A stretch of 63,432 nt of DNA, counting the filler. It is 5 parts of 5 records of this genome, joined end to end, with 100 filler letters (N's around TTAATTAATTAA, not from the genome) between each part and the next. Parts side by side here need not be neighbours in the genome. Positions count along the whole stretch, not along the records: positions 28,674 to 49,270 come from SRR20825019_2279; 4 more parts are not named here. One strand, written 5' to 3'. Below, piece by piece: positions 30,331-58,994 of this stretch. The translations under genes and the position numbers were made by a program. The notes beneath the pieces are model-generated. The model was not told the origin of the DNA. It searched no databases and saw only the letters and a program-made list of their open reading frames with translations. The first letter of the stretch is position 1, and every line of letters starts with the position of its first letter.

Positions 30331-31387
30331 GTCTGGGTTGTGCAGTATTTCACACCTCAACACGCAGGCACTATTTGTACCTGTAGCCCTGAGTGCCTCA
30401 GTTGCGACAGTGTTAGTGGGCTGGTGGAGGCACAGCCCCGAAGGACACGGAACTTGCTACTTCACACATAGGTGCCCTCTGCGGCAAGGTGGTGGTGTGA
30501 AAGGCATGGACAAGTCGGATGCGCCTTGCCGGCGCGCCACCTGGTCCGGCGCCGTCACTCGCCCTAACTGACTACGGGTTCACACAACCAACGATACCAG
30601 ATCGACACGGGCTACCCGGCACCCGGACGGGCCTGGCGCCCGCGCCACGGTCGGCCCGGCCGGTCCGTCCCCGCCGGGGGCGACGAGCCGGAGCGCAGCA
30701 CGGTCATGACCGGCGTGCGCTGGTGTGGGCATGGGGGCCGCTACCCGCAGTGCCGGACGGGCCGGCCGGCCGCGGGTTTCTGGGCGGGAGGCTGGGGCCC
30801 CGAGTCCATGGTGAGGCTGCCCGCCACCACGGCCCGCGGCGGCCGGGCCCACGCGGGCCAGCGCCGGGCAGTTTGAACGTGAATTCCGTCGTTCCGATCG
30901 TCACATGTATACTATCAACAAGTCCCATAATTGATACATGTAACCAATTTGTTGGGTCTGTGCATAACGATATTCCTGATATAATGAATATCCTACGCAA
31001 CCCTCTCCTTGAGCTGCCCGACCACGTGACGCGGCCCAAGGCCGCACCATGGCACTGGCAGTCCGCGGGCTCCTGAGCCCCGGCGGCCTCCCCGTCAGCC
31101 CGCGCACGGCCGCGGCTGCCTGCCACGGTTCATCCGCGGCTACGATCCGGGCGCAGTCCCGCGAGCGCCGCGCTCACGGCGGCATGCTCGGCAACCACAG
31201 CCGTGACAATACTGCGAATATGGCGGGCGGGTTAGGCAGGCCGTGATGTTGAGAGCTCTCGCCGGCTGCCCGGGCCATACCGGCCGACTGGAAGCTGTTG
31301 TGGGGAGGTAAGAAATTATGGGCTAGACGACCGCCCATACATAAAGTTTTCACGAGAGAGGGCGTATTACCTTAGGTGACAGCAAGT

Positions 31388-34300
31388 ATGGGTGGCTTCC
31401 GAGCCTCACTATTGCTTGTCTATGTGGTCGGGGCACTGGCCATTTCGACAGGCACTGGGGATCATCCGAAAACAACCGGTGGGCAGTCTGAATTTGATGC
31501 AGAGTGGCAGCAGCTTCTCCATGAAAACGCCAACCTTATCAGTGGTGCCTCTGCTATGCCAGGGGATGCCACACAGCCCGAGCTAGACGAGTCTGCGCAC
31601 TCTGTGAACTCGCCTTCTAGTCTAACATCTGCAGATGCGGAGCCTTCTAACTCGGCGTACCAGTCAATGCTGCGTGGAAAACTGGTGGCCGCGTCGGGGG
31701 GTGATAGCGTATCTGCTCATGAGCACGACGCGGGCTCCGAAAAAGGCCCGGTTGACGCAACCTCCGTGAATAGCCACGAGGGTGGCCACGGCGACCACGA
31801 GGCGGAGAATGGCCATGACAAAACGGGAGAGCATGGCGAGACTTCTGTTAGTGCTGAGTCCCACGCCAAGGCTGAACCTAAGCACAAAGATACGAGTGAT
31901 AAGAAGAATACCGACAAGAAAGACAAGAAGGCGAAGAAGGCTGAAGGCGGCCCGGCGGCTTTGAGGGAGGCGGATGAACGCAACTATGAAGCCGCTCAGG
32001 AGGAGCCTCGCGACAGCCATGGACACCACGACACGACAGCGGATAAGCACAAGCTTTCTTCTGATCATCATGCTCCTGGTAAGGCAGGAGAAAAGGTGGG
32101 TGACGGAGTCCACGCGGACAAGTCTCAGGTTGGTGCGGCCGACGCGCAGAAGAAGCACGAGGAGGCCGCGGCCGACACCGAAGCCCCAGTCACCAAGGAA
32201 GAGTCAGAGGCCGAAAAGGAGAAAGCAGTGAATGAGGCCGCCAGTGAAGAGCGTGAATCCGAAATTGGTGATGGAGCATCGGTCGACATAGGTGGCGGAG
32301 ACGATGACGCAGATGGCACTAGTGGCGAAACTGCTGATGATTACAGCAATTCCGCAGGCACGTCTGAGCGGATTCTTGCTGAGCAGAATATCCCATCTTC
32401 TTCAAACGAAACGGAAATAGTGGACTCGACTGCTGTAGCAGGGGCGTTGAATAGCACGAGTAACCACACGGCGCCGGGCGGACTTAATCAAACGGCCATG
32501 CCTATTGGAGCGAATAATACCGGCTCCGAGCCCGTTGCACAAGAGGGCGATGATGAGGAAGTTGACGCGGCAGGTCTGGCTTCTGCGAATTCAACAACCG
32601 CATCCAACGGAACCTTGGGTGGGAATTCTACCGAGACAATGCCGACAAGAAGAGAGATTCGGGAGCAAATTCGCGAAGACAACGAGGACGCAGAGAATGT
32701 CGATGATGCGATCAGTGATGACACAAGGATGAGACGCGAGGCAGAAGGAAGGCTTGAAGCCCAGCATGAGGCCAATGAGACTCTTAGTGATGCTGTTGTC
32801 GAAGATAAGCTGAAGGATGAGGTGAAGAAGAAACAGGAGAATAAGGATGAAGAGGAAGAGGATGATGAACTTGAGAAGAAGAAGGAAGAGATGGAGAAGG
32901 TCGAGGCCGAGGCGGAGAAAGAAAAGGAGGATGTTAAGGCTGAGAAGGCACGCCTTGATAGCGACGAGAGAACCAAAGCCAAGGCAATGGAAAAGCAAAT
33001 TCAGGACAAGAATTCTGATGACACGAACTCCAACGCGGCCGGTGAACGCACTTCTGGAGACGTTGGAGACCCTGTCGAAGCGACGAACTCGACATCAAGC
33101 GCTCCGGCGGACGGCGAGGACGTGCCAACAACTGCTGACGATGGGATGAACGATATCACAAGTGATGTAGATGCCGTTGATGGAGTAGGCAATTCCACCG
33201 AGTCAGCGTCATCCGACAACAGCACCGCTCCTGCTTCACCTCTTGGCGAAGAGGCAGTAAAGCAGCCTGACGACAGCACCCCTGCCAGCAGCCAGGGTTC
33301 TATCGAAGAAGAAGCGGATCAGGAAAGCGATCAACAAATGAAGGAATCTTCCGTGCCCGATACAGATGACGAGCACGAGTACTTCATTATGCTCGATGCG
33401 GGATCGGTGCGCACCAAGCTGGCCATATCCATGCACTATCCGAAGCCAAGGGGGGACGCCGACGCAAAGGCACGTACAGAAATGATGGAGATTGATGATT
33501 CATACGTGACGCAAACCACGCCTGGTTTGGTGTCCTATCTGGACAACCTTGACCAGATCGAGGACGCACTCCATCCCCTATTGGAGACGGCGCAGAATTC
33601 GGTACCGCCGGCGAAGCGGAGCTCCACTCCTGTTGCTGTGTTCCTGACGGGAGAGATCACGCAGCAGTCTCGCCAGAAGGTGTCTCTCCTTCTCGACGAG
33701 ATCCGCTCGGTGATGGCTACTTACCCCTTCGAGTTCCACTACGGATATGTGCGGATAATGCCGGGAGATGACAAGGCGGCATACACGTGGATTAGTGCCA
33801 ACGAAGGCTTCAAGAGGCTAGATGAAGGAGCCAATACCCTTGGCGTTATCTCTCTTGGGTCGCAAGAGACCGTTGTGGCATACCAGCCAACGAAGGACTT
33901 CCTGCCCCTGGATCCCAATGCTGGTGGTTACAATATTTCGTTGGCAGCCGTGAAACACGACTTGTTCGCGTACGGCTATGCGGGGCTGGGCATGGAGTCC
34001 AGCATGAAAGGCTACTATAATCAACTGGTATCATCTTCAGAGACTCCTACGGTTGAGCTGGAGGAGGAGCTTGTGCATGCGCTAGAAGGGGCAGCGATGA
34101 GTCCTTGCCTACTGCTCGGTGATACCAAAGAGGTTGGGAACGGAGCGAAGGTGACCACGGTGAACTCAGGGAAGCATGGGGAGACACTAGTGATTGGAGG
34201 CGATTTCAAGGAATGCGTCAATGATATTACCACCATGGTTGTGAAGGGTGAGCGTGAGGTGACCTCGTTTGGCAAGACTTCATTGAAGAGCACTGCCAAT

Positions 34301-34900
34301 GAGCCGCTGCCTCCCAGCAAACTCACCGAAAACGGGCCGGTGCTGTTGGCAAGGGGATTTTTCTACATGAGTAGATTCTTTGGGATCATGGGCGAGCAGA
34401 CTGTGGATGTGTTCAAGACCACTGGGGAGAACTATTGCGGGATCAGCTTGGCCACAGCTCGTAAAGAGTACAAGGGTGTCCTTGAGAAGTACTACAGTAC
34501 ATTCTCCGAAGAGAAGAGAGACGAGTATCTGAAGAGCTACTGCTATGGGCTTTCGTTGACTTACTCCCTGTTGACCGAAGCGTACGGGCTGAAGGACTCT
34601 GACAACGTGAATATCGTTGATTCAACGGGCGGACACACAATTGATTGGCCCTCCGGCGCTATTATGTGGTATAGCAGCGAGCATCACGAGGAGGGAGAGG
34701 TTCAAACCGTGCAGAGTACGGCCAGCACTAGCCAGAATACAGCAATCCTGGCCTCTATCGCGCTGTTGGCAATGCAGGTGTCAGCATTAGCATTGTGCCT
34801 TGGCATCGTGGTCCGCAAACTGATTCTCCTTAATGAGCATAATGAAATGGTCGATCAGATTGAGGACAAGCTTTACCAGGCTCCGGGATACCGCAGCTAA
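31388..34900 (+). CDS. GDA1/CD39 (apyrase/NTPDase) family protein with long acidic N-terminal region and C-terminal TM; probably catalytically degenerate
   Basis: Signal peptide, MLDAGS (ACR1), PGL.SY, Y.W..AN, G.I.LG, SPC, YC, W..GA, C-terminal TM. Single exon. Confidence 0.85.
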   Translation: MGGFRASLLLVYVVGALAISTGTGDHPKTTGGQSEFDAEWQQLLHENANLISGASAMPGDATQPELDESAHSVNSPSSLTSADAEPSNSAYQSMLRGKLVAASGGDSVSAHEHDAGSEKGPVDATSVNSHEGGHGDHEAENGHDKTGEHGETSVSAESHAKAEPKHKDTSDKKNTDKKDKKAKKAEGGPAALREADERNYEAAQEEPRDSHGHHDTTADKHKLSSDHHAPGKAGEKVGDGVHADKSQVGAADAQKKHEEAAADTEAPVTKEESEAEKEKAVNEAASEERESEIGDGASVDIGGGDDDADGTSGETADDYSNSAGTSERILAEQNIPSSSNETEIVDSTAVAGALNSTSNHTAPGGLNQTAMPIGANNTGSEPVAQEGDDEEVDAAGLASANSTTASNGTLGGNSTETMPTRREIREQIREDNEDAENVDDAISDDTRMRREAEGRLEAQHEANETLSDAVVEDKLKDEVKKKQENKDEEEEDDELEKKKEEMEKVEAEAEKEKEDVKAEKARLDSDERTKAKAMEKQIQDKNSDDTNSNAAGERTSGDVGDPVEATNSTSSAPADGEDVPTTADDGMNDITSDVDAVDGVGNSTESASSDNSTAPASPLGEEAVKQPDDSTPASSQGSIEEEADQESDQQMKESSVPDTDDEHEYFIMLDAGSVRTKLAISMHYPKPRGDADAKARTEMMEIDDSYVTQTTPGLVSYLDNLDQIEDALHPLLETAQNSVPPAKRSSTPVAVFLTGEITQQSRQKVSLLLDEIRSVMATYPFEFHYGYVRIMPGDDKAAYTWISANEGFKRLDEGANTLGVISLGSQETVVAYQPTKDFLPLDPNAGGYNISLAAVKHDLFAYGYAGLGMESSMKGYYNQLVSSSETPTVELEEELVHALEGAAMSPCLLLGDTKEVGNGAKVTTVNSGKHGETLVIGGDFKECVNDITTMVVKGEREVTSFGKTSLKSTANEPLPPSKLTENGPVLLARGFFYMSRFFGIMGEQTVDVFKTTGENYCGISLATARKEYKGVLEKYYSTFSEEKRDEYLKSYCYGLSLTYSLLTEAYGLKDSDNVNIVDSTGGHTIDWPSGAIMWYSSEHHEEGEVQTVQSTASTSQNTAILASIALLAMQVSALALCLGIVVRKLILLNEHNEMVDQIEDKLYQAPGYRS

Positions 34901-41843: not shown

Positions 41844-42958
41844 GGGAAAACTTCAGCTTCCAAACAAAGTATATGGAGCTTGAAGCGAACAAGGTGGGCT
41901 ACTGAAAGGTGAAGTATATATGAGTTTACGTGAGTGAATATCGGCCGCAGAGGCTCTCACCAAGTCAGAGCTGACAAGGTGGCCTGCAACACACGCCGGC
42001 GCCTCTTCGATTGGGAGCGGCCCAAGGACTCGGACTCAGGCCATTGCAGCCCCTTCGAGTGGCGACCGGAGTTTGTTAGTGGTGACCGCCGGCGGGCACG
42101 AGGAAGTGGGCAAGCGCGGACCACTGGCGAGCGCCGCGGCACGACTGCGCCGCACCTCCTCACGGGGCGTGCCGGCGGTGCCCAGCCATTGTTGAGTGCG
42201 GATCGGATCATGACTGCTGTCGTCCAACTAACTAATGATGGATCCGGCTCCATGACACAACTGAACCCTCGGCTCACCACCACCGTGACAGTGCCGGAGA
42301 GTGAACTTCTCCACGGCACTGTGGGCATGATCTGGAATCAAGTCGCGTTCCTGTTCCCGAGCGCATTAGTGTCAATTAGCCGTCCGGCCTGTTTGGCGTC
42401 AGCCGGGCTCATATCCTCCAGAGGCGGCCTTCCCACTGACGGACTCATCGGCCTGGCGCGACGCGGCAGTCGCCCGGGGTCGTAGGCTTGCCACCATAGG
42501 ACGTACTCCGTTAGTTCGTCAGTGTCGGGCCGGCACCGTGCGGGGGTGGCGGGGGACGAGGGCCCAACCGGAGGTGCTCAGAGAGGGACCGCCTCGTATC
42601 GGAGCGGTGAGTCTCGGATCGAAGAGAAGGCTTCAATTGAATTGAGTCGGATCAAGTGCCTCGGCCTTCGCCCGTAAGCGGTCACGGAACGCGGCCCCCC
42701 GCCCGGGGTGCCACCCCCGGCGGCGCTGAGCCCGCGACGCCGCCGCCGCGCCGCCGGCGGCCCCACTCGGCCCGCGGGGACTGCAAGCGGGCCGGACCGC
42801 CGGCCCCGGCAGTGTTCGCAAGGACCCGCAAATCTACTGTGTTTTCCCATTGCCTTCACCATGTATTCTCCGAGCCAAACAATCCTGAGGCCCGGTCCTC
42901 TCGGTATAAATACCCTTGCGCGCACCAAAAAAAAAAAACTAAGCTGCTGAGACACACA

Positions 42959-43718
42959 ATGGGTGACACTATGATGACCAAAGACCTCTACGGTGGGGCC
43001 ATCACCGTTAATTTGGAGAGTCGCTTCGTGGACGTCAGGTATATAGGAATATTCCATTTTTACTGTGAATCTAACGAGTCATTTGGGTAGCGAAATAAGG
43101 CAAGTCCCCGACCACCAGGAAGTATATGCGGATGTAAACACGGATCAAAGTGTGATCTTCGAGCTTCTATCAAAGGCTGAAGTGGCAGACGAGCAAGCTG
43201 GCAAGTATCACTTGGATGATTTGGTGTCAGGAGAGCACACTGTCCTGAGTGATGAGTCAATTAGTAGCACCGATTGTCCCGGAGTCGGGTATGATCCTCG
43301 CTTATTCATCAACTTGATCGTGTCTAAAGGATCGTCGCTCGTCGCAGAGAAGGCGCAAAGCGGGTCGTGACCTGCGAGATGCTGGAGTCAAAGTTTAAGG
43401 AGGCTGAAAAAAACAATGTTATAGTGTTTCTGGCGGTTCTTCGAATGGAGTCTGTCGAGACTGACTTCATCGTAAGCATGAATGTTCCTGTGAGCATCAA
43501 TCAAGGTGAGTCGCTGCACTGGTGGCGTTTTGATCTTGAGTTTAAGAAGAGTTGGTGCAGATAGTAGCAGCGCAAAGAATGCCCTTGAGGGAGGCGCTGC
43601 TGTGCTTGTTGGGAATAGGGATTTTGGCACCAAAGACGCCGTTGTAAAGGGCGCTCTTGATTCCTTCAAGGCTGTTCTCAAGTCGCTGAAGATTGTCAAC
43701 TGGGGGCTCTTCGGGTAA
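42959..43718 (+). CDS. MOG1: Mog1 / Ran guanine-nucleotide release factor (multi-exon)
   Basis: LYGGAI....F.DVS|EIRQVPDHQEVY....DQSVIFELL ... SKFKE ... ETDFIVSMN ... WGLFG. Confidence 0.88.
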
Positions 43719-43867
43719 CAAACCTGACATCCCAGTAACTCCAAACTCCCATTTTTGCGCGTAAGCGTTGCAACCACTTGCGCTCTCTCTTGTTCTTGTA
43801 TTCCGAATACCATCAGTGTCCTATATGCATAAATAAATCTGTATCGCCTACCTTTGCTGCACGACCA

Positions 43868-45333
43868 CTATAGCTTCAAAGACAAATCATTCGTGAGCTC
43901 CGTAGCACTCGCCAGTGCGGTACGCAGTGACTTGACTAGCTCTTTGACATCATCCCTCTGAGCTAGCATTCGCTCTCGGATCATGCTGGGCTCCTACCAC
44001 CGCATTAGAGACAAATACACTAAGACCTGGGCCACGTTACCATCTTGAAAATACACGCATTCCTTCTTATAAGTGGATCGCCGGTGCTTCCTGTGAAGTA
44101 TACATCCGGGGTCGATGGCTTCATCACCCGGATTTCCACGATCCAATGCATTTTTCCATCAGGGGATTCTTCTGCCTGGATATCATCGGGAACCCCTATT
44201 CCACAGTCCCAGTCAATATCTCATCCACTACACTCACGCTAACTTAGTACCGAAAACTCGATGGAAATCAAGGTGATACATGGCCTCAGATACAGGGGGA
44301 TATATATCATGAACTCGCTTGCTCACTGCCTGTCGGAGGTGGTCCTTGTCTTTGTCACTCAATGATTCTCCAAAGACGCATTGGTCATCCCGCACACCAA
44401 AGAGGATGCGGCCGCCTTGACTGTTCAGAAAGCCTACAATATATCTTTCGGCCGTCTCCGCAATTCGTGATACAAGACGTTTTTGGTCTTTCCTCTCGTA
44501 AAAAAGCTTAAACTCGAACTCTACGTCTTCCTCAAACTGGAAGATCTGGCCGTACACAAAAGCCCCGATGCTGGCGAATGGTCAGAAGCCAGCAGTATCG
44601 CACTAAAAGGGTGAACACCTACTCTTCTGTTGGGGCTCTTAATCTGAACTCGCGGTCCTTCCCCGGAGGGATTGCCTTTCGCTCCCTCAGGGCCTTGATG
44701 ACCTTGTGGGCAGCATAGTCCTCTAAGAAGGGCTATTAGTCACAGCTCTGGTCATCCAACACAACATCATACCGGCCTCGAGCTTTGACGAGCCCCAGCC
44801 AACCACTACGAGTTTTTCCTTGAATTTGTGGTGGTGACCAGTTTCCGTCCCGGTAATGACTTCCAAAGGGACTCCGATCGGAAGCAACCCTTCAGAGTTT
44901 GATCTTTGCAATGGCGACTTTTGCCCATCGTCCCCAGCTGAACCTGATGATAATACCATTAGAAACCTTACACGGCAACCTGCCAATCTCGCTTCCCACC
45001 TTTTCTTTTCCGTACCGCCCCGCTGCTCGTGCTTGGTTTCTCGCTTTCTTCACGCTTACCTTTCATAACGTTATAGTACACTGTCAGTGTGCAACGCCAC
45101 TCAGGCACCGAGGTTGATGAGGTATCAGGGGATATTTCCTTCCCGGGATTTGAACCATCCTGTGCAATGTCTTCATAGACGCGACGAAACGCAAGGACTT
45201 GGTTCCTTTTCAGGTGGTATAGGAGGGACCGTGGCTCATTCTCAGCGAACATCCTCCTTATGTTGTTCTGTTGGTGGCTAACATGTTCTTCTGCTGGAGT
45301 AAACACTGTGGTTCTGCTCATGAATAAGAACAC
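43868..45333 (-). CDS. dsRNA-binding domain + Schlafen/AlbA_2 domain fusion protein (at least 6 exons)
   Basis: Introns 44944-44999 (or -45059), 44723-44772, 44571-44622, 44196-44250 and 43994-44040 give an open frame with DSRM motifs PRSLL..., GWGSSKLEAEDYAAHKVIKAL and Schlafen motifs EEDVEFEFK, FLNSQGGRILFGVRDD. Start uncertain. Confidence 0.8.
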
Positions 45334-46453
45334 GTGCTGGGTGCTGACGCCATTTCAGTGGTGTCGCAGGGTCTTGGGCATCTACAAAGAGGAGGATGGG
45401 CCCAAGGCACCAGTCAGGGTGAAGGGATCACGGGCCGGCCACCCGGCCCGGGTGGCCCGCAGTCCCGCCCACTGCCGAGACCCGGCGGCCACGCGACTCG
45501 ACCCGGCCCGGCCGGCTGACGGACCTGTCACTGAACGCGGGGTGATGGGCCATCATTCGAGGGCGCGGGTGGCCGGGGGGCGCCGGCCCCCAGTGAGCCC
45601 GGGAATCCCCGGTCGTGAGGGGCGCCGGGGGCGCGGCGGGCCGCCGGCGGGGGTGGAGAAAAACGACGGGTTCTGCTCAGAGTGTTGAGTGGCGTCCAGT
45701 GAGGAGTGACTGGACTTGTACTTGGGGAGGGCCCACACGAGATTGATCCTCCTCGAAACCCCAACTATAGTTGGCCATTGCAAGGCGGGACTGCAGGCCT
45801 CATCATCCAGTACCCTGTCTTGATGCCGTGGGGGGCGTATCAAAACGGTATGCTCGCTGTCTTGCAAGGTCGTTGTGAGGCCAATTTGAGTTGCCAACGG
45901 CGATAAGGCTGAACTCCCAGACTCCCCATGGCAACATGACTCCCATGCGCGGTCCGTTCATGGCCGCACGTGGCCTCAGTATGGCCTCCCGACACGCCGC
46001 AGCCTTGGGAACGAAGATCAAAGCCCATCTTCCTCGAAGAGGTACTGCCTCGAGCCTGACTGTGTTGTAAACGCTTGTCATTGCTCAACTGATCTGTGCG
46101 CGCCGCTCGCCCCCGCCGCGCCGGGCCACAGCGGCGCGGGGCAAGCGCGATTAGCCTGCGCTGGTGAGCTGGTTTGCACAACCCTCCCTCCTACTGGCCC
46201 ACTAAATGATGGCGTACCCGTACGGGCCTCATTGCCAGTGCAGCGACGGCCGTGCCCTTTCGGCTTCGTGCCACCACTCAAGAGACCGGCACTGCCCTAT
46301 CTTTTCCAAGACGACGAATTGTGGTTCATGAGCAGGCTATGGTGCCCTTGCCGAATGCCCAACTCCGCAACTTCAACCTCCCTACCCATAAAACTGGCTC
46401 TCAAAACCACATTCTCTTATAAAATATATATTACATATTTCATATTGATCAAT

Positions 46454-55992: not shown

Positions 55993-56060
55993 TTTGTAAC
56001 AAATAATACAAATAAGCAAAATTTATGTTTATTTGTTGCATAGTGTAATTTATATTACGC
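55993..56060. promoter_or_regulatory. Two GTA-N8-TAC palindromic operator-like sites
   Basis: TTTGTA-N8-TACAAA (55993-56012) and GTGTAATTTATATTACGC (56043-56060) in an AT-rich region upstream of the GS-like gene. Confidence 0.55.
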
Positions 56061-56150
56061 AACAAGACGTCACAAGACGCGATGACCAAAAACGGGCAGG
56101 AACCGGTCAGTCCGATACAAAAACAAAGCCCAAATCACAGGAGGCCGCCG

Positions 56151-57518
56151 ATGCAGGCGAAGGATGTCAAAACCGCCGATGACGCACGAAAACTGATTAA
56201 GGAACGAGACATCAAATTCGTCAAAATCGGTATTTTCGACGTCGACGGAATCATGCGCGGCAAATACATGCATCGCGAAAAATTCCTGTCGGCACTCGAT
56301 TCCGGTTTTGCCTTTTGTGATGTGGTTCTGGGTTGGGATTCAAATGACCAGCTCTATGACAAATCCGAGTTTACAGGATGGCACACGGCATATCCGGATG
56401 CACCGGTGCGCGTGATCCCCGAAAGCTGCCGCGAATTGCCGATGGAAGACGATACCGTTCTGTTCCTTGGCGAGTTCGAGGGACGGGCGGAAACCGTGTG
56501 CCCGCGTGGCACATTGCGCCGTGTCCTCGATAAAGCCGATAAGATGGGATATGACGTTTCGGCCGCCTGCGAGTTCGAGTTTTTCCTGTTCGAGGAAGAC
56601 CCGCATTCCGTGCGCGAGAAGAACTATCGCAATCTGAAGAACATCACACCGGGCTTTTACGGTTATTCGATGCTGCGCAATTCCGTGCATTCGGAATTCT
56701 ATCATGACCTGCTTGAACTGGGTGAAAGCATGGATTTCCCGATTGAGGGACTTCATACCGAAACCGGCCCTGGGGTTTTGGAAGCTGCCCTTACCCATGA
56801 TGAGGCGATGAAAGCCGCCGACAAAGCCGCACTTTTTAAAACATTCACCAAGGTTCTGGCCCAGCGTGCCGGATGGATGGCAACATTTATGGCGAAATGG
56901 TCACCTGATTGGCCGGGGCAGTCGGGGCATATGCATGTTTCGATCAAGGGCAAGGATGGCCGGGCGGCATTTTATGACGCCAACAAGCCGCACAATATGT
57001 CCGATGAAATGCGGTGGTTCCTTGGCGGGCAACAGAAATTGATGCCGGAACTGCTGTCGATGGTGGCCTGCACGGTGAACAGTTATTCGCGACTGATCCC
57101 GGGTTTCTGGGCACCGACGACGGCAACGTGGGGTGTTGAAAACCGTACCACGGCCCTTCGTGTCATTCCGGGTAGTGCCAAGTCGCAGCGTATTGAATAT
57201 CGCATTGCGGCGGCGGATATTAACCCCTATATCGCGCTTTCGGCGGCCATCGGTTCGGGGCTTTGGGGCATTGAAAACAAGGTGGAGCCGGGCGAAATGG
57301 TCGTCGGCAACGCCTATGCGCAGGAATTCCCCGAAGATACGAGCTTGCCTGCAACGCTTTACGAGGCAGCCGGACGTTTGCGCAAATCCGAGGCGGCAAA
57401 ATCGCTGTTTGGTGAAGAATTCGTGACCCATTACGCCCAGTCGCGGGAATGGGAAGAACGCGAATTCCGCAAGGCGATTACCGACTGGGAAATGCAGCGT
57501 TACTTCGAAATCATTTGA
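56151..57518 (+). CDS. Glutamine-synthetase-family gamma-glutamyl ligase (PuuA-like)
   Basis: GIMRGK, EFEFFLF, HTETGPG..E, GQSGHMHVS, NSYSRL.PG.WAP, ENRT, RIEYR. AGGAGG RBS before ATG 56151. Confidence 0.92.
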   Translation: MQAKDVKTADDARKLIKERDIKFVKIGIFDVDGIMRGKYMHREKFLSALDSGFAFCDVVLGWDSNDQLYDKSEFTGWHTAYPDAPVRVIPESCRELPMEDDTVLFLGEFEGRAETVCPRGTLRRVLDKADKMGYDVSAACEFEFFLFEEDPHSVREKNYRNLKNITPGFYGYSMLRNSVHSEFYHDLLELGESMDFPIEGLHTETGPGVLEAALTHDEAMKAADKAALFKTFTKVLAQRAGWMATFMAKWSPDWPGQSGHMHVSIKGKDGRAAFYDANKPHNMSDEMRWFLGGQQKLMPELLSMVACTVNSYSRLIPGFWAPTTATWGVENRTTALRVIPGSAKSQRIEYRIAAADINPYIALSAAIGSGLWGIENKVEPGEMVVGNAYAQEFPEDTSLPATLYEAAGRLRKSEAAKSLFGEEFVTHYAQSREWEEREFRKAITDWEMQRYFEII

Positions 57519-57602
57519 TCTGTTGCATGCGGCGACGCATCGTCGCTTCGCGCCTGGTCACATATCTTAGCGCCCTAACTCATTCTCCAATTGTGAGGCA
57601 TC

Positions 57603-58994
57603 ATGTCTGAGAGTTTACGCACCATCTCGCCCGTTGATGGATCCGTTTATGTCGAGCGTCCGCTTGCCGGTGCCGCCGAGATCAACAAGGCACTTGATGT
57701 TGCCCGCGCCGCACAGGCCGAATGGCGCAATGTGCCGGTTGCGACCCGTCAGGAAATCCTGCGCAAGGCGGTTGCCGCCTTTGTTGCGAAAAAGGATGAA
57801 ATTGCCGCTGAGATCAGCTGGCAGATGGGCCGACCGATTTCGCAAGCCGGTGGCGAGGTTAACGGTTTTAAGGAACGCGCCGATTACATGATCAACATCG
57901 CGCCTGAGGCACTTGGCGATTACAATCCGGGCGAGAAGGCCGGTTTTAACCGTTTCATCCGTCGCGAGCCATTGGGCGTCGTTGCGATCATCGCACCGTG
58001 GAACTTCCCGTATCTGACGGCGGTGAACGGCGTTGTTCCGGCCCTTATGGCGGGGAATGCGGTGGTGTTGAAACATTCGCACCAGACCCCGCTTTGTGCA
58101 GAACGCTTTGCCGAGGCGTTTGAAGCCGCCGGTCTGCCCAAGGGATTGTTCCAGTATCTGCATCTGAGCCATGCGGATGCGGAAAAACTGATGGGCGATA
58201 TCCGTGTTGATTTCGTCAATTTCACCGGTTCGGTGCCTGGCGGCCATGCTGTTCAGAAAGCGGTTGGAGGCAAGTTCATCGCGACCGGTATGGAGCTTGG
58301 CGGCAAGGACCCGGCCTATTTGCGTTCGGACGTCAATATCGATCATGCGGTGGAAAACGTCATTGATGGCGCGTTCTTTAACAGCGGACAGTCGTGCTGC
58401 GGGATTGAACGGATTTACGCCCATGAAAGCGTTTTTGATGCCTTTGTAGAGAAGGCTGCCGATCTTGTATCGCAATACCGCCTTGGCAGCCCGATTGATA
58501 CGGAAACCAACCTTGGCCCGATGGTGCGTGCGTCATCAGCGGCCTTCGTACGGGGCCAGATTGCCGATGCCATCCGTGACGGGGCAAAGGCATTGATCGA
58601 TCCGTCGAAATTTACCGCCAACAAGGAAGGCACCCCGTATCTTGCGCCGCAGGTCTTGATCAATGTCGATCATTCGATGCGCGTCATGAGCGAGGAAAGC
58701 TTTGGCCCGGTTGTCGGCATTATGAAGGTGACATCCGACGAGGAAGCCATTGCCCTGATAAATGACAGTGAATTCGGGCTGACGGCATCGATCTGGACAG
58801 CGGATGAGGATGCCGCCCTTTCGATTGGGGACCGGCTTCAGACCGGAACGGTTTTCATGAACCGTGCAGATTACCTTGATCCGGCACTGGCCTGGACGGG
58901 TGTGAAAAATTCGGGACGTGGATGCACGCTTTCGAAACTGGGTTACGAATCCCTGACCCGGCCGAAAAGCTTCCACCTGCGGACCAAGATTTAA
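57603..58994 (+). CDS. Aldehyde dehydrogenase
   Basis: PWNFP, FTGS, ELGGKDP, NSGQSC, EESFGP. Confidence 0.95.
   Translation: MSESLRTISPVDGSVYVERPLAGAAEINKALDVARAAQAEWRNVPVATRQEILRKAVAAFVAKKDEIAAEISWQMGRPISQAGGEVNGFKERADYMINIAPEALGDYNPGEKAGFNRFIRREPLGVVAIIAPWNFPYLTAVNGVVPALMAGNAVVLKHSHQTPLCAERFAEAFEAAGLPKGLFQYLHLSHADAEKLMGDIRVDFVNFTGSVPGGHAVQKAVGGKFIATGMELGGKDPAYLRSDVNIDHAVENVIDGAFFNSGQSCCGIERIYAHESVFDAFVEKAADLVSQYRLGSPIDTETNLGPMVRASSAAFVRGQIADAIRDGAKALIDPSKFTANKEGTPYLAPQVLINVDHSMRVMSEESFGPVVGIMKVTSDEEAIALINDSEFGLTASIWTADEDAALSIGDRLQTGTVFMNRADYLDPALAWTGVKNSGRGCTLSKLGYESLTRPKSFHLRTKI

What the first reader, a model, noticed from the sequence alone, without database searches (positions are those of the whole stretch)
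43868..45333. Intron-hidden dsRNA-binding domain fused to an apparently intact Schlafen (AlbA_2) nuclease in a microbial eukaryote
Seen in sequence: removing five short GT-AG introns gives one frame. It starts EPRSLLYHLKRNQVLAFRRVYED...PEWRCTLTVY, runs through a long insertion and reaches KLVVVGWGSSKLEA|EDYAAHKVIKAL, which fits the DSRM C-terminal consensus GxGxSKKxAExxAAxxAL only after splicing. This is followed by FEEDVEFEFK...FLNSQGGRILFGVRDD...WIVEIRV...IRRNA and a short helical or coiled-coil tail. Established: the E-x4-EFK and GVxD acidic residues form the catalytic centre of Schlafen RNases, which cleave tRNA/rRNA in animal antiviral defence and occur in bacterial defence proteins. Inference: a compact dsRNA-sensor + RNase protein could be a one-component antiviral effector or small-RNA-processing nuclease in a protist. 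I do not recall this architecture being characterised.
Basis: partly seen in the sequence, partly recalled or inferred. Interest (0 to 1): 0.85.

Follow-up and report, generated by a model that had tools for sequence, protein, structure and literature searches.

The report
Spliced single-lobe Schlafen RNase gene
A six-exon gene of a microbial eukaryote encodes a small Schlafen-type RNA-cutting enzyme whose front end carries only the last third of a double-stranded-RNA-binding signature, making it a variant of the poorly understood "Schlafen-like 1" group rather than a proven dsRNA sensor.

Summary
A spliced contig of a public run removes exactly five short GT-AG introns (56, 50, 52, 55, 47 nt) plus a sixth in the 3'UTR. 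This joins all exons into one 397-codon frame on the minus strand.

The C-terminal half is a genuine single AlbA_2/Schlafen domain. Pfam gives E 1.2e-10 on exon 4 alone, and Ex4ExK, GVxD and a fourth Asp are all present.

The dsRBD claim is only partly supported. A bacterial dsRBD profile matches residues 148-177 (beta3-alpha2) only after splicing: 10.8 bits, reached by 0 of 3000 shuffles, against a best of 6.6 bits in the six-frame background. Only one of the three RNA-contacting lysines remains. I could not fold the spliced protein.

In my tree the domain falls in a 25-leaf clade holding all 8 eukaryote-named relatives. There AlbA_2 follows RRM (Nematostella SLFNL1) or cold-shock domains, or precedes NLR-type ATPases.

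Best reading: an RNA-binding-module plus single-lobe Schlafen endoribonuclease, a new variant of a known kind. Its biological role, RNA processing or defence, is open.

The parts
45000..45321 (-). CDS exon 1 (codons 1-107 plus 1 nt). ATG at 45321-45319, with an alternative in-frame ATG at 45252.
   Evidence: Frame open from 45354. The 3' boundary is set by the contig joint 44943|45000. The contig covers only up to 45259.
45001..45060 (-). Lys/Arg/Ser-rich 20-codon stretch (residues 88-107). It looks like a bipartite nuclear localisation signal; this is inference only.
   Evidence: Retained in the spliced contig; translation.
44944..44999 (-). Intron 1, 56 nt, GT..AG, phase 1
   Evidence: Joint
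44773..44943 (-). CDS exon 2 (residues 108-165 in part). Ends inside the dsRBD-like helix.
   Evidence: Joints
44723..44772 (-). Intron 2, 50 nt, GT..AG, phase 1. Splits the dsRBD-like beta3-alpha2 motif.
   Evidence: Joint
44685..44824 (-). dsRBD-like beta3-alpha2 motif, residues 148-177 (interrupted by intron 2)
   Evidence: Matches profile positions 42-71 of 72 at 10.8 bits. Scores 15.3-16.7 bits on sub-pieces, reached by 0 of 2000 and 0 of 3000 shuffles. The best E. coli RNase III HSP falls at the same place, 12 of 23 identical.
44623..44722 (-). CDS exon 3 (rest of the helix and a linker)
   Evidence: Joints
44571..44622 (-). Intron 3, 52 nt, GT..AG, phase 2
   Evidence: Joint
44251..44570 (-). 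CDS exon 4: first three quarters of the AlbA_2 domain
   Evidence: Pfam PF04326 E 1.2e-10, 42.4 bits against a cut-off of 25.3. Matches PDB Schlafen chains.
44507..44530 (-). Active-site motif E212-x4-E217-F-K219
   Evidence: Aligned to the matching motif of rat Slfn13 (5yd0). These columns are nearly invariant in 70 relatives. Ex4(E/D)xK is given as the catalytic motif in PMC13056530 (passages).
44342..44389 (-). Third and fourth acidic residues: D259 (GVxD) and D274
   Evidence: Alignments. PMC12680541 describes a site of three to four acidic residues (passages).
44196..44250 (-). Intron 4, 55 nt, GT..AG, phase 1
   Evidence: Joint. The family profile runs across the junction without a gap.
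44041..44195 (-). CDS exon 5: end of the AlbA_2 domain (domain = residues 202-341, 44086-44560)
   Evidence: Custom AlbA_2 profile, 159.7 bits over residues 202-341
43994..44040 (-). Intron 5, 47 nt, GT..AG, phase 0
   Evidence: Joint
43868..43993 (-). CDS exon 6: C-terminal helical tail (residues 357-397) and stop TAG at 43870-43868
   Evidence: In the homologue P0113 the matching tail is modelled as one long helix, with 10-residue block means of pLDDT 94-96 for residues 311-340 and 87 for 341-350.
43795..43851 (-). 3'UTR intron, 57 nt, GT..AG, 16 nt downstream of the stop
   Evidence: Joint

Best explanation
The locus is an expressed, six-exon gene for a 397-residue protein of the eukaryotic 'Schlafen-like' (SLFNL1-type) group. 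These proteins have one AlbA_2 nuclease lobe, not the two-lobed animal Schlafen core.

Shown:
- the exon structure
- a single AlbA_2 domain at residues 202-341, with the full set of active-site residues E212, E217, K219, D259 and D274
- a 30-residue stretch just upstream (148-177) that matches the last strand and helix of dsRNA-binding domains
- a C-terminal helix

Inferred: the protein is a divalent-metal-dependent endoribonuclease. The N-terminal region acts as an RNA-binding or adaptor module that brings a structured RNA (tRNA, rRNA or a duplex) to the nuclease. The basic stretch 88-107 sends it to the nucleus. Activity needs self-association, as in other Schlafen nucleases.

Open: whether it serves RNA processing or defence.
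For: Gene model: spliced contig; 397 codons.

AlbA_2 domain:
- Pfam E 1.2e-10 on exon 4.
- phmmer against PDB found 17 sequences at E<=10. Fourteen are Schlafen chains; 9 of these have E<0.001, the best being rat Slfn13 at 1.6e-7.
- A profile of the 150 listed relatives gives 159.7 bits over residues 202-341, continuous across the exon 4/5 junction, and finds only one lobe.
- The E-E..EFK, GG and D columns are nearly invariant in 70 aligned relatives.
- Catalytic meaning of these residues: PMC13056530, PMC13462974 and PMC12680541 (passages).

Fold of the family: the AF2 model of homologue P0113 has block-mean pLDDT of 87 or more (mostly above 93) over about residues 171-350. Foldseek matches SLFN12, 11, 5, 13 and 14 and the SAMD9 tRNase domain at E 3e-10 to 1e-5.

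dsRBD-like motif:
- It appears only after splicing and exceeds all shuffles and the six-frame background.
- P0113, which is 28% identical over 238 columns and has the same layout, gives its best match to the same profile part at the same place. That match scores 4.3 bits, and 16 of 2000 shuffles do as well.

Clade context: of 155 sequences, 152 kept a domain and were put in the tree.
- The window sits in a 25-leaf clade (support 0.90) with all 8 eukaryote-named sequences and none of the 5 bacterium-named ones.
- In that clade Pfam finds RRM+AlbA_2 (Nematostella 'schlafen-like protein 1').
- It also finds cold-shock domain+AlbA_2 (P0129 and P0007, the latter below Pfam's cut-off).
- AlbA_2 is followed by weak NB-ARC/AAA_16 matches, all below Pfam's cut-offs, in P0149, P0067 and P0070.
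Against: - No enzymatic or binding data exist.
- The first two thirds of a dsRBD are not detectable in either placement. Pfam's dsrm model hits none of the separate exons, nor P0113 at E<=10.
- N-terminal similarity between the window protein and P0113 is not significant: 54 of 500, 1993 of 3000 and 80 of 3000 shuffles reach the observed scores.
- Only 1 of 3 lysines of the recalled KKxAK motif is kept, so dsRNA binding may be weak or lost.
- The tree has very long branches (more than 2 substitutions per site). The third batch of name look-ups was chosen from inside the clade, so 8 of 8 is a biased count.
- The nuclear signal and oligomerisation are inference only.
- The sequencing run's kind is not on record.
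Confidence: 0.6

Rival explanations
1. On this view a complete dsRBD (alpha1-beta1-beta2 in exon 1, a roughly 60-residue insertion, beta3-alpha2 in exons 2-3) senses viral or other long dsRNA. It then switches on the Schlafen nuclease, giving a one-component antiviral or small-RNA-processing effector.
For: - The beta3-alpha2 match is real.
- The hydrophobic pattern of residues 29-87 is compatible by eye with helix-strand-strand.
- Relatives of this AlbA_2 clade sit in NLR-like proteins of protists and in bacterial fusions with PemK toxin or methylase domains, which points to conflict systems.
- Schlafen nucleases act in defence (PMC13056530 and PMC13462974, passages) and in piRNA processing (PMC10567574, passages).
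Against: - Residues 25-92 score -1.9 bits against the dsRBD profile, no better than shuffles: 1361 of 2000 and 2025 of 3000 do as well.
- They do not align to P0113's N-terminus above chance; 1993 of 3000 shuffles do as well.
- hhalign prefers a compact placement at residues 112-179.
- There is no evidence on induction or on viruses.
Confidence: 0.2
2. The upstream motif is not a working dsRBD. It would be a remnant, or a helix used for protein contacts or to cap the nuclease domain. The protein would then be a housekeeping SLFNL1-type RNA-processing nuclease whose substrate choice lies in the AlbA_2 lobe and its partners, as in the trimeric PUCH complex.
For: - Only a third of the dsRBD is detectable and the key lysines are lost.
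- The AF2 model of P0113 shows helices but no confident sheet upstream of the domain (low confidence).
- Single Schlafen-like lobes work through hetero-oligomers in PUCH (PMC10567574, passages).
- SLFNL1 is proposed to have ancestral RNA-biogenesis roles (PMC12492265, passages).
- The gene sits among ordinary genes (Mog1, ABM-domain gene).
Against: - The motif is kept at the same position in a 28%-identical homologue.
- Other clade members carry bona fide RNA-binding domains at that position, which suggests that an RNA-binding module there is functional.
Confidence: 0.3
3. The protein is a non-catalytic nucleic-acid-binding protein or regulator. AlbA_2 was first annotated as a DNA-binding domain.
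For: Database names of relatives include 'putative DNA-binding domain-containing protein'. SAMD9's AlbA_2 domain was crystallised with DNA (7ksp). Some mammalian Schlafens are not nucleases (PMC13462974, passage).
Against: All active-site residues are intact here and nearly invariant in relatives. Inactive Schlafens typically lack them (PMC13462974, passage).
Confidence: 0.08

Closest known systems
SLFNL1-type 'Schlafen-like' proteins (Nematostella 'schlafen-like protein 1', P0141/P0300; vertebrate SLFNL1)
   Same: - About 400 residues.
- One AlbA_2 lobe in the C-terminal half, with conserved catalytic residues.
- An RNA-binding module in front of it in Nematostella (RRM_1 E 1e-6).
- Same 25-leaf clade in my tree.
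- Function uncharacterised (PMC12492265, passages).
   Different: The N-terminal module here is not an RRM; it carries a dsRBD-like beta3-alpha2 motif. Identity is low and the branches are long. I did not test orthology to vertebrate SLFNL1, because no vertebrate sequence was in my set.
Stygamoeba regulata transcript protein P0113 (MMETSP/EukProt)
   Same: Same order of parts: N-terminal region with a weak dsRBD-like motif directly before AlbA_2, then a C-terminal helix. It is 28% identical over 238 columns, from the motif to the tail.
   Different: Its N-terminal unit is compact (about 80 residues) with no basic insertion. Similarity of the two N-terminal regions is not significant.
Mammalian Schlafens SLFN11/12/13/14 (tRNA/rRNA endoribonucleases)
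   Same: The nuclease lobe aligns to their C-lobe, including E-x4-E-x-K and the GVxD aspartate. The fold of the homologue matches them.
   Different: They have a two-lobed core plus linker and helicase domains. Here only one lobe is found, and there is no helicase.
PUCH (TOFU-1/TOFU-2/SLFL-3/4), the C. elegans piRNA 5'-processing nuclease
   Same: Stand-alone Schlafen-like lobes acting on small-RNA precursors; catalytic Glu essential (PMC10567574, passages).
   Different: PUCH is a heterotrimer that recognises the cap. No partners are known here, and I made no sequence comparison.
Prokaryotic Schlafen defence nucleases (pSlfn, Cash, Avs9) and the SAMD9/9L tRNase domain
   Same: Single AlbA_2 effector with Ex4(E/D)xK, fused to varied sensor domains (PMC13056530, PMC13462974 and PMC12680541, passages). 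Many of the 150 nearest relatives are such fusions.
   Different: This is a eukaryotic, intron-bearing gene, outside the bacterium-named sequences in my tree. Its partner module is an RNA-binding-like region, not a nucleotide sensor or STAND ATPase.

Membership tests
Pfam SLFN_AlbA_2 (PF04326) | Profile score above the curated cut-off | tested here: met
   Exon 4 alone scores 42.4 bits against a cut-off of 25.3, E 1.2e-10, profile positions 1-79 of 118. The rest of the domain lies in exon 5.
Pfam SLFN_AlbA_2 (PF04326) | Catalytic Ex4(E/D)xK plus downstream acidic residues | tested here: met
   E212, E217, K219, D259 and D274 are present and aligned to the conserved columns. Motif definitions come from PMC13056530 and PMC12680541 (passages).
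Pfam SLFN_AlbA_2 (PF04326) | AlbA_2 fold | not testable with these tools
The model of homologue P0113 matches Schlafen and SAMD9 structures.
Pfam SLFN_AlbA_2 (PF04326) | Metal-dependent RNA cleavage | not testable with these tools
   Needs biochemistry.
Animal Schlafen family (SLFN groups I-III) | Two-lobed Schlafen core (N-lobe plus C-lobe) | tested here: not met
   Only one AlbA_2-like region is reported even at domain E-values up to 1000. The N-terminal half has no AlbA_2 signal.
dsRBD (Pfam dsrm, PF00035) | Profile match over the whole roughly 66-residue domain | tested here: not met
   Pfam gives no hit on exons 1, 2 or 3 taken singly at E<=10. My 30-sequence bacterial profile matches only positions 42-71 of 72. 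The Pfam model could not be run on the spliced protein.
dsRBD (Pfam dsrm, PF00035) | C-terminal GxG-SK..AE..AA..L strand-helix signature | tested here: met
   Scores 10.8-16.7 bits, reached by 0 of 2000 and 0 of 3000 shuffles; six-frame background maximum 6.6 bits.
dsRBD (Pfam dsrm, PF00035) | alpha-beta-beta-beta-alpha fold | not testable with these tools
   The spliced protein cannot be folded here. Exon 1 alone gave mean pLDDT 48, and the N-terminus of P0113 was below 50.
dsRBD (Pfam dsrm, PF00035) | RNA-contact residues (KKxAK at the helix start, His in the beta1-beta2 loop; recalled) | tested here: inconclusive
   One of three lysines is kept. A His-rich G-HHH-KF stretch fits the loop only in the compact placement from hhalign, which is not supported on its own.
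Eukaryotic SLFNL1-like clade | Groups with named Schlafen-like proteins of eukaryotes in an AlbA_2 tree | tested here: met
   25-leaf clade, support 0.90, containing 8 of 8 eukaryote-named and 0 of 5 bacterium-named sequences. Long branches, and name look-ups partly chosen from inside the clade.

The most novel reading that the evidence does not exclude
A microbial eukaryote carries a one-chain dsRNA-gated Schlafen RNase. A divergent dsRBD, split by an intron and by a basic insertion, binds viral or antisense duplex RNA. It then licenses the adjacent single-lobe nuclease to cut tRNA, rRNA or the duplex itself. This would be a eukaryotic counterpart of the sensor-fused bacterial Schlafens, and a possible ancestral form of SLFNL1.
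Probability: 0.13. Interest if true: 0.8.

Novelty: new variant of a known kind. Interest (0 to 1): 0.45.

Why it matters
Single-lobe 'Schlafen-like' nucleases outside the mammalian cluster are almost unstudied; SLFNL1 itself has no known function (PMC12492265, passages). This locus gives a transcript-verified, catalytically intact example from a microbial eukaryote.

Together with its relatives it shows a pattern. In one eukaryote-rich AlbA_2 clade, the nuclease is repeatedly preceded by RNA-binding modules (RRM, cold-shock, a dsRBD-like motif) or followed by NLR-type ATPases. This offers small, tractable proteins for asking two questions: how a lone Schlafen lobe finds its RNA, and whether the ancestral role was RNA processing or immunity.

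If the N-terminal module proves not to bind RNA, the gene is an ordinary member of that clade.

Tried and rejected
- My first intron 1 (donor 45059, 116 nt) was rejected by the contig. therefore used a 377-residue model; its only use was to pick relatives.
- Word-indexed homologue search with exon 4, 'longer' lengths: 79 candidates, none at E<=0.001.
- Metagenome contig scan with exon 4: 247 pattern matches, none confirmed.
- No genome is held for the window.
- ESM Atlas with exon 1: best score 0.83, below the level of a lead.
- Rfam on the whole window: 0 matches.
- Sequencing runs: no RNA holder listed. The single holder, X1, is of unrecorded kind.
- Attempts to collect diverse dsRBDs through E. 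coli RNase III gave only near-identical enterobacterial proteins and loci. I replaced them with a sample of 81 genomes of one phylum, all 81 with a dsrm match, of which 30 loci were used.
- A MAFFT alignment that included the window's exon fragments misplaced exons 1-3 on the nuclease domain, so I did not use it.
- AF2 of P0113: N-terminus pLDDT below 50. AF2 of exon 1 alone: mean pLDDT 48. Neither tells us anything about a dsRBD.
- Homodimer test on P0113 residues 165-351: no verdict, score 0.25 against a mark of 0.32, controls not run.
- N-terminal similarity to P0113: not above shuffles.
- dsRBD profile against the 150 relatives: best score 4.7 bits, E 0.27.
- Earlier-findings look-ups by place and by sequence: nothing.
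- Repeats around the gene: nothing relevant.
- Considered and rejected: a retrocopy or DNA origin for the spliced contig. It also carries the oppositely oriented, spliced Mog1 gene.
Full report
WHAT IS THERE

The finding lies on the minus strand. I laid the one public run that holds the stretch (X1, kind not on record) on 42900-45700.

A single 1842-nt contig covers the region with nine joints:
- Six are CT..AC on the plus strand, so they are GT..AG introns of a minus-strand gene: 44999-44944 (56 nt), 44772-44723 (50), 44622-44571 (52), 44250-44196 (55), 44040-43994 (47) and 43851-43795 (57). The last lies 16 nt past the stop codon.
- Three are GT..AG introns of the convergent plus-strand neighbour, which Pfam calls Mog1.

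A contig that lacks the introns of two oppositely oriented genes can only come from RNA. It shows that all six exons are joined in one message.

Joining the exons by coordinates gives 1194 nt, that is 397 codons and a TAG. My own first model used a 116-nt first intron and was wrong. The transcript keeps 20 more codons, a Lys/Arg/Ser-rich stretch. The contig ends at 45259, so the start codon (45321, or 45252) is not verified. It differs from the window at two places, and both change residues of the N-terminal region (N58S, T70I).

THE NUCLEASE HALF

- Exon 4 alone passes Pfam's SLFN_AlbA_2 cut-off: 42.4 against 25.3 bits, E 1.2e-10.
- Against PDB sequences it finds 17 chains at E<=10, and 14 of them are Schlafens. 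The best is rat Slfn13 N-domain at 1.6e-7. The alignment puts the window's E212 and E217-F-K219 on that protein's E..E-F-K and its D259 on the second Asp of GVDD. That these are the catalytic E205/E210/D248 is my recollection. The general motif Ex4(E/D)xK and a site of three to four acidic residues are stated in PMC13056530 and PMC12680541, and an E-D-K triad in PMC13462974 (passages read).
- An exhaustive HMMER search gave 494 representatives at E<=0.001, none above 48% identity.
- A profile built from the 150 listed ones aligns to the spliced protein over residues 202-341 at 159.7 bits. It runs without a gap across the exon 4/5 junction and finds no second lobe. The protein is therefore a single-lobe Schlafen-type domain, not a two-lobed animal Schlafen core.
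- In a 70-sequence alignment the E-E, E-F-K, L-N, G-G, G and D columns are invariant or nearly so, and the window has them all.

THE dsRBD QUESTION

The spliced protein may not be sent to the Pfam, PDB or fold tools, so I tested it in the script box.
- I sampled 81 genomes of one bacterial phylum with Pfam dsrm (81 of 81 matched) and took the 30 best loci. I cut out their RNase III dsRBDs and built a 72-position profile.
- The profile matches the spliced protein once, at residues 148-177 against profile positions 42-71, the last strand and helix. The score is 10.8 bits.
- On sub-pieces the score is 15.3-16.7 bits, and 0 of 2000 and 0 of 3000 shuffles reach it.
- The best score among 1292 unspliced six-frame ORFs of the window is 6.6 bits. 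Among the 150 AlbA_2 relatives it is 4.7 bits.
- E. coli RNase III's best local alignment to the protein falls at the same place, 12 of 23 identical.

The rest of the domain is not supported.
- hhalign instead lays the whole profile on residues 112-179, a compact domain inside exons 2-3 with a His-rich loop (probability 58%, E 1e-4). Its confidence is high only over the last third.
- Residues 108-150 alone are no better than shuffles; 709 of 3000 do as well.
- Pfam saw no dsrm in exons 1, 2 or 3 singly.
- Of the three lysines of the helix-start RNA-contact motif (recalled), one remains.

Two AF2 jobs did not help. The homologue P0113 folds with high confidence over about residues 171-350 (10-residue block means of pLDDT 87-98), but pLDDT is below 50 over residues 1-96 and 103-132. 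Exon 1 alone gave mean pLDDT 48.

I put the chance that residues up to 180 contain a dsRBD-derived fold at roughly one half. I put the chance that it still binds dsRNA at about a quarter.

RELATIVES AND CONTEXT

One relative, P0113, has the same order of parts. It comes from an amoebozoan transcriptome, named Stygamoeba regulata by its source.
- It aligns from the helix of the motif to the C-terminal tail, 28% identity over 238 columns, E 8e-21.
- Its best match to the dsRBD profile is at the equivalent place: 4.3 bits, with 16 of 2000 shuffles doing as well.
- The two N-terminal regions are not significantly alike.
- Foldseek of its model finds SLFN12, 11, 5, 13 and 14 and the SAMD9 tRNase domain.

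I built a FastTree of the AlbA_2 domain. Of 155 sequences, 152 were used; 3 without a near-full domain were dropped.
- The window falls in a 25-leaf clade, support 0.90.
- I looked up names for 30 representatives; one search supplied two more.
- All 8 sequences with a eukaryote's name are in this clade: Stygamoeba, Endostelium, Giardia, Barthelona, Monocercomonoides, Blattamonas, Clytia 'schlafen-like 2' and Nematostella 'schlafen-like 1'.
- The 5 with a bacterium's name are outside it.
- The last ten look-ups were chosen from inside the clade, so the count is biased, and the branches are long.

Within the clade, Pfam finds:
- RRM_1 + AlbA_2 in the Nematostella SLFNL1.
- Cold-shock domain + AlbA_2 in P0129 (41 bits against a cut-off of 27) and, below the cut-off, in P0007 (21.9 bits).
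- AlbA_2 followed by weak NB-ARC or AAA_16 matches in three proteins (P0149, P0067, P0070). All these matches are below Pfam's cut-offs.

Two further clade members (P0062, P0081) are 1500-1800-residue proteins of oxymonads. Their sources name them 'putative ATP-binding protein' and 'NLR family CARD domain containing protein'.

Outside the clade the domain is fused to PemK toxin (4 of 70), DNA methylase (4 of 70), receiver, kinase, TPR and other domains.

An RNA-binding module in front of a lone Schlafen lobe is therefore a recurring eukaryotic layout. The window's version differs in the module.

HOW IT MOST LIKELY WORKS

Shown: the intact active site, the upstream dsRBD-like motif and the C-terminal helix.

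Inferred from the families:
- metal-dependent endonucleolytic cleavage of a structured RNA
- substrate capture or regulation by the N-terminal region
- nuclear import through the basic stretch 88-107
- action as an oligomer

A homodimer test on the homologue gave no verdict and is not evidence either way.

Whether the role is housekeeping RNA processing or defence cannot be decided here. PMC12492265 proposes processing for SLFNL1, and PMC10567574 shows it for PUCH. The NLR-like and bacterial relatives suggest defence. The gene's neighbours are ordinary.

LITERATURE

Four full-text searches found no paper describing a dsRBD-AlbA_2 protein. The terms were:
- Schlafen/AlbA_2/dsRBD
- Schlafen with double-stranded RNA-binding domain/protist/fungi/SLFNL1/evolution
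- SLFNL1/Schlafen-like
- Schlafen/dsRNA-binding domain/fusion/domain architecture

I read passages only, not whole papers, and supplementary tables were closed.

VERDICT

This is a new variant of a known kind, of moderate interest.

Noticed in passing
P0062, P0081, P0149, P0067, P0070 (relatives, not in the window): Protist proteins (Monocercomonoides, Blattamonas, Endostelium, Barthelona by their sources' names) carry this AlbA_2 clade at the N-terminus. In three of them it is followed by NB-ARC/AAA_16-type ATPase matches, a SAMD9/Avs9-like layout. PMC12680541 (passage) reports finding no SAMD9-like hits in protozoa. The NB-ARC matches are weak (E 4e-4 to 5e-4, below Pfam's cut-off).
   Followed up: partly
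P0001 (relative, 2337 aa): One representative matches the AlbA_2 query in 22 separate stretches (E 8.5e-73), so it is a long tandem array of Schlafen lobes. It is on a 401-kb NCBI contig with no name.
   Followed up: no
window 43000-43870: The Mog1 gene (plus strand, stop at 43716-43718) and the Schlafen-like gene (minus strand) converge. One assembled contig runs through both, so their 3' ends lie within about 150 nt or overlap. If they overlap, they could form a natural antisense duplex.
   Followed up: partly
window 43795-43851: A 57-nt GT..AG intron lies in the 3'UTR, only 16 nt after the stop codon.
   Followed up: partly
window 45318-45353 (minus strand): An 11-codon upstream ORF ends with a TGA that overlaps the putative start ATG (ATGA). 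It is relevant only if the 5'UTR reaches that far, which the contig does not show.
   Followed up: no
window 45113 and 45149: The only two differences between the transcript contig and the window in about 1.8 kb both change amino acids (T70I, N58S). Both lie in the poorly conserved N-terminal region.
   Followed up: partly
window 42640-42900 and 45420-45660: Very G+C-rich stretches lie upstream of both genes of the convergent pair, partly complementary to each other (23-nt arms, 83%). They are possibly promoter islands.
   Followed up: no
window 56049-58991: A glutamine-synthetase-type ORF (489 aa) and an aldehyde dehydrogenase ORF (465 aa) lie head to tail on the plus strand, 81 nt apart. Each is an uninterrupted frame, unlike the intron-rich genes nearby.
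   Followed up: no
window 31376-34897: A 1174-codon open frame has a GDA1/CD39 nucleoside phosphatase domain in its second half (E 1.4e-35) and about 660 unassigned N-terminal residues.
   Followed up: no
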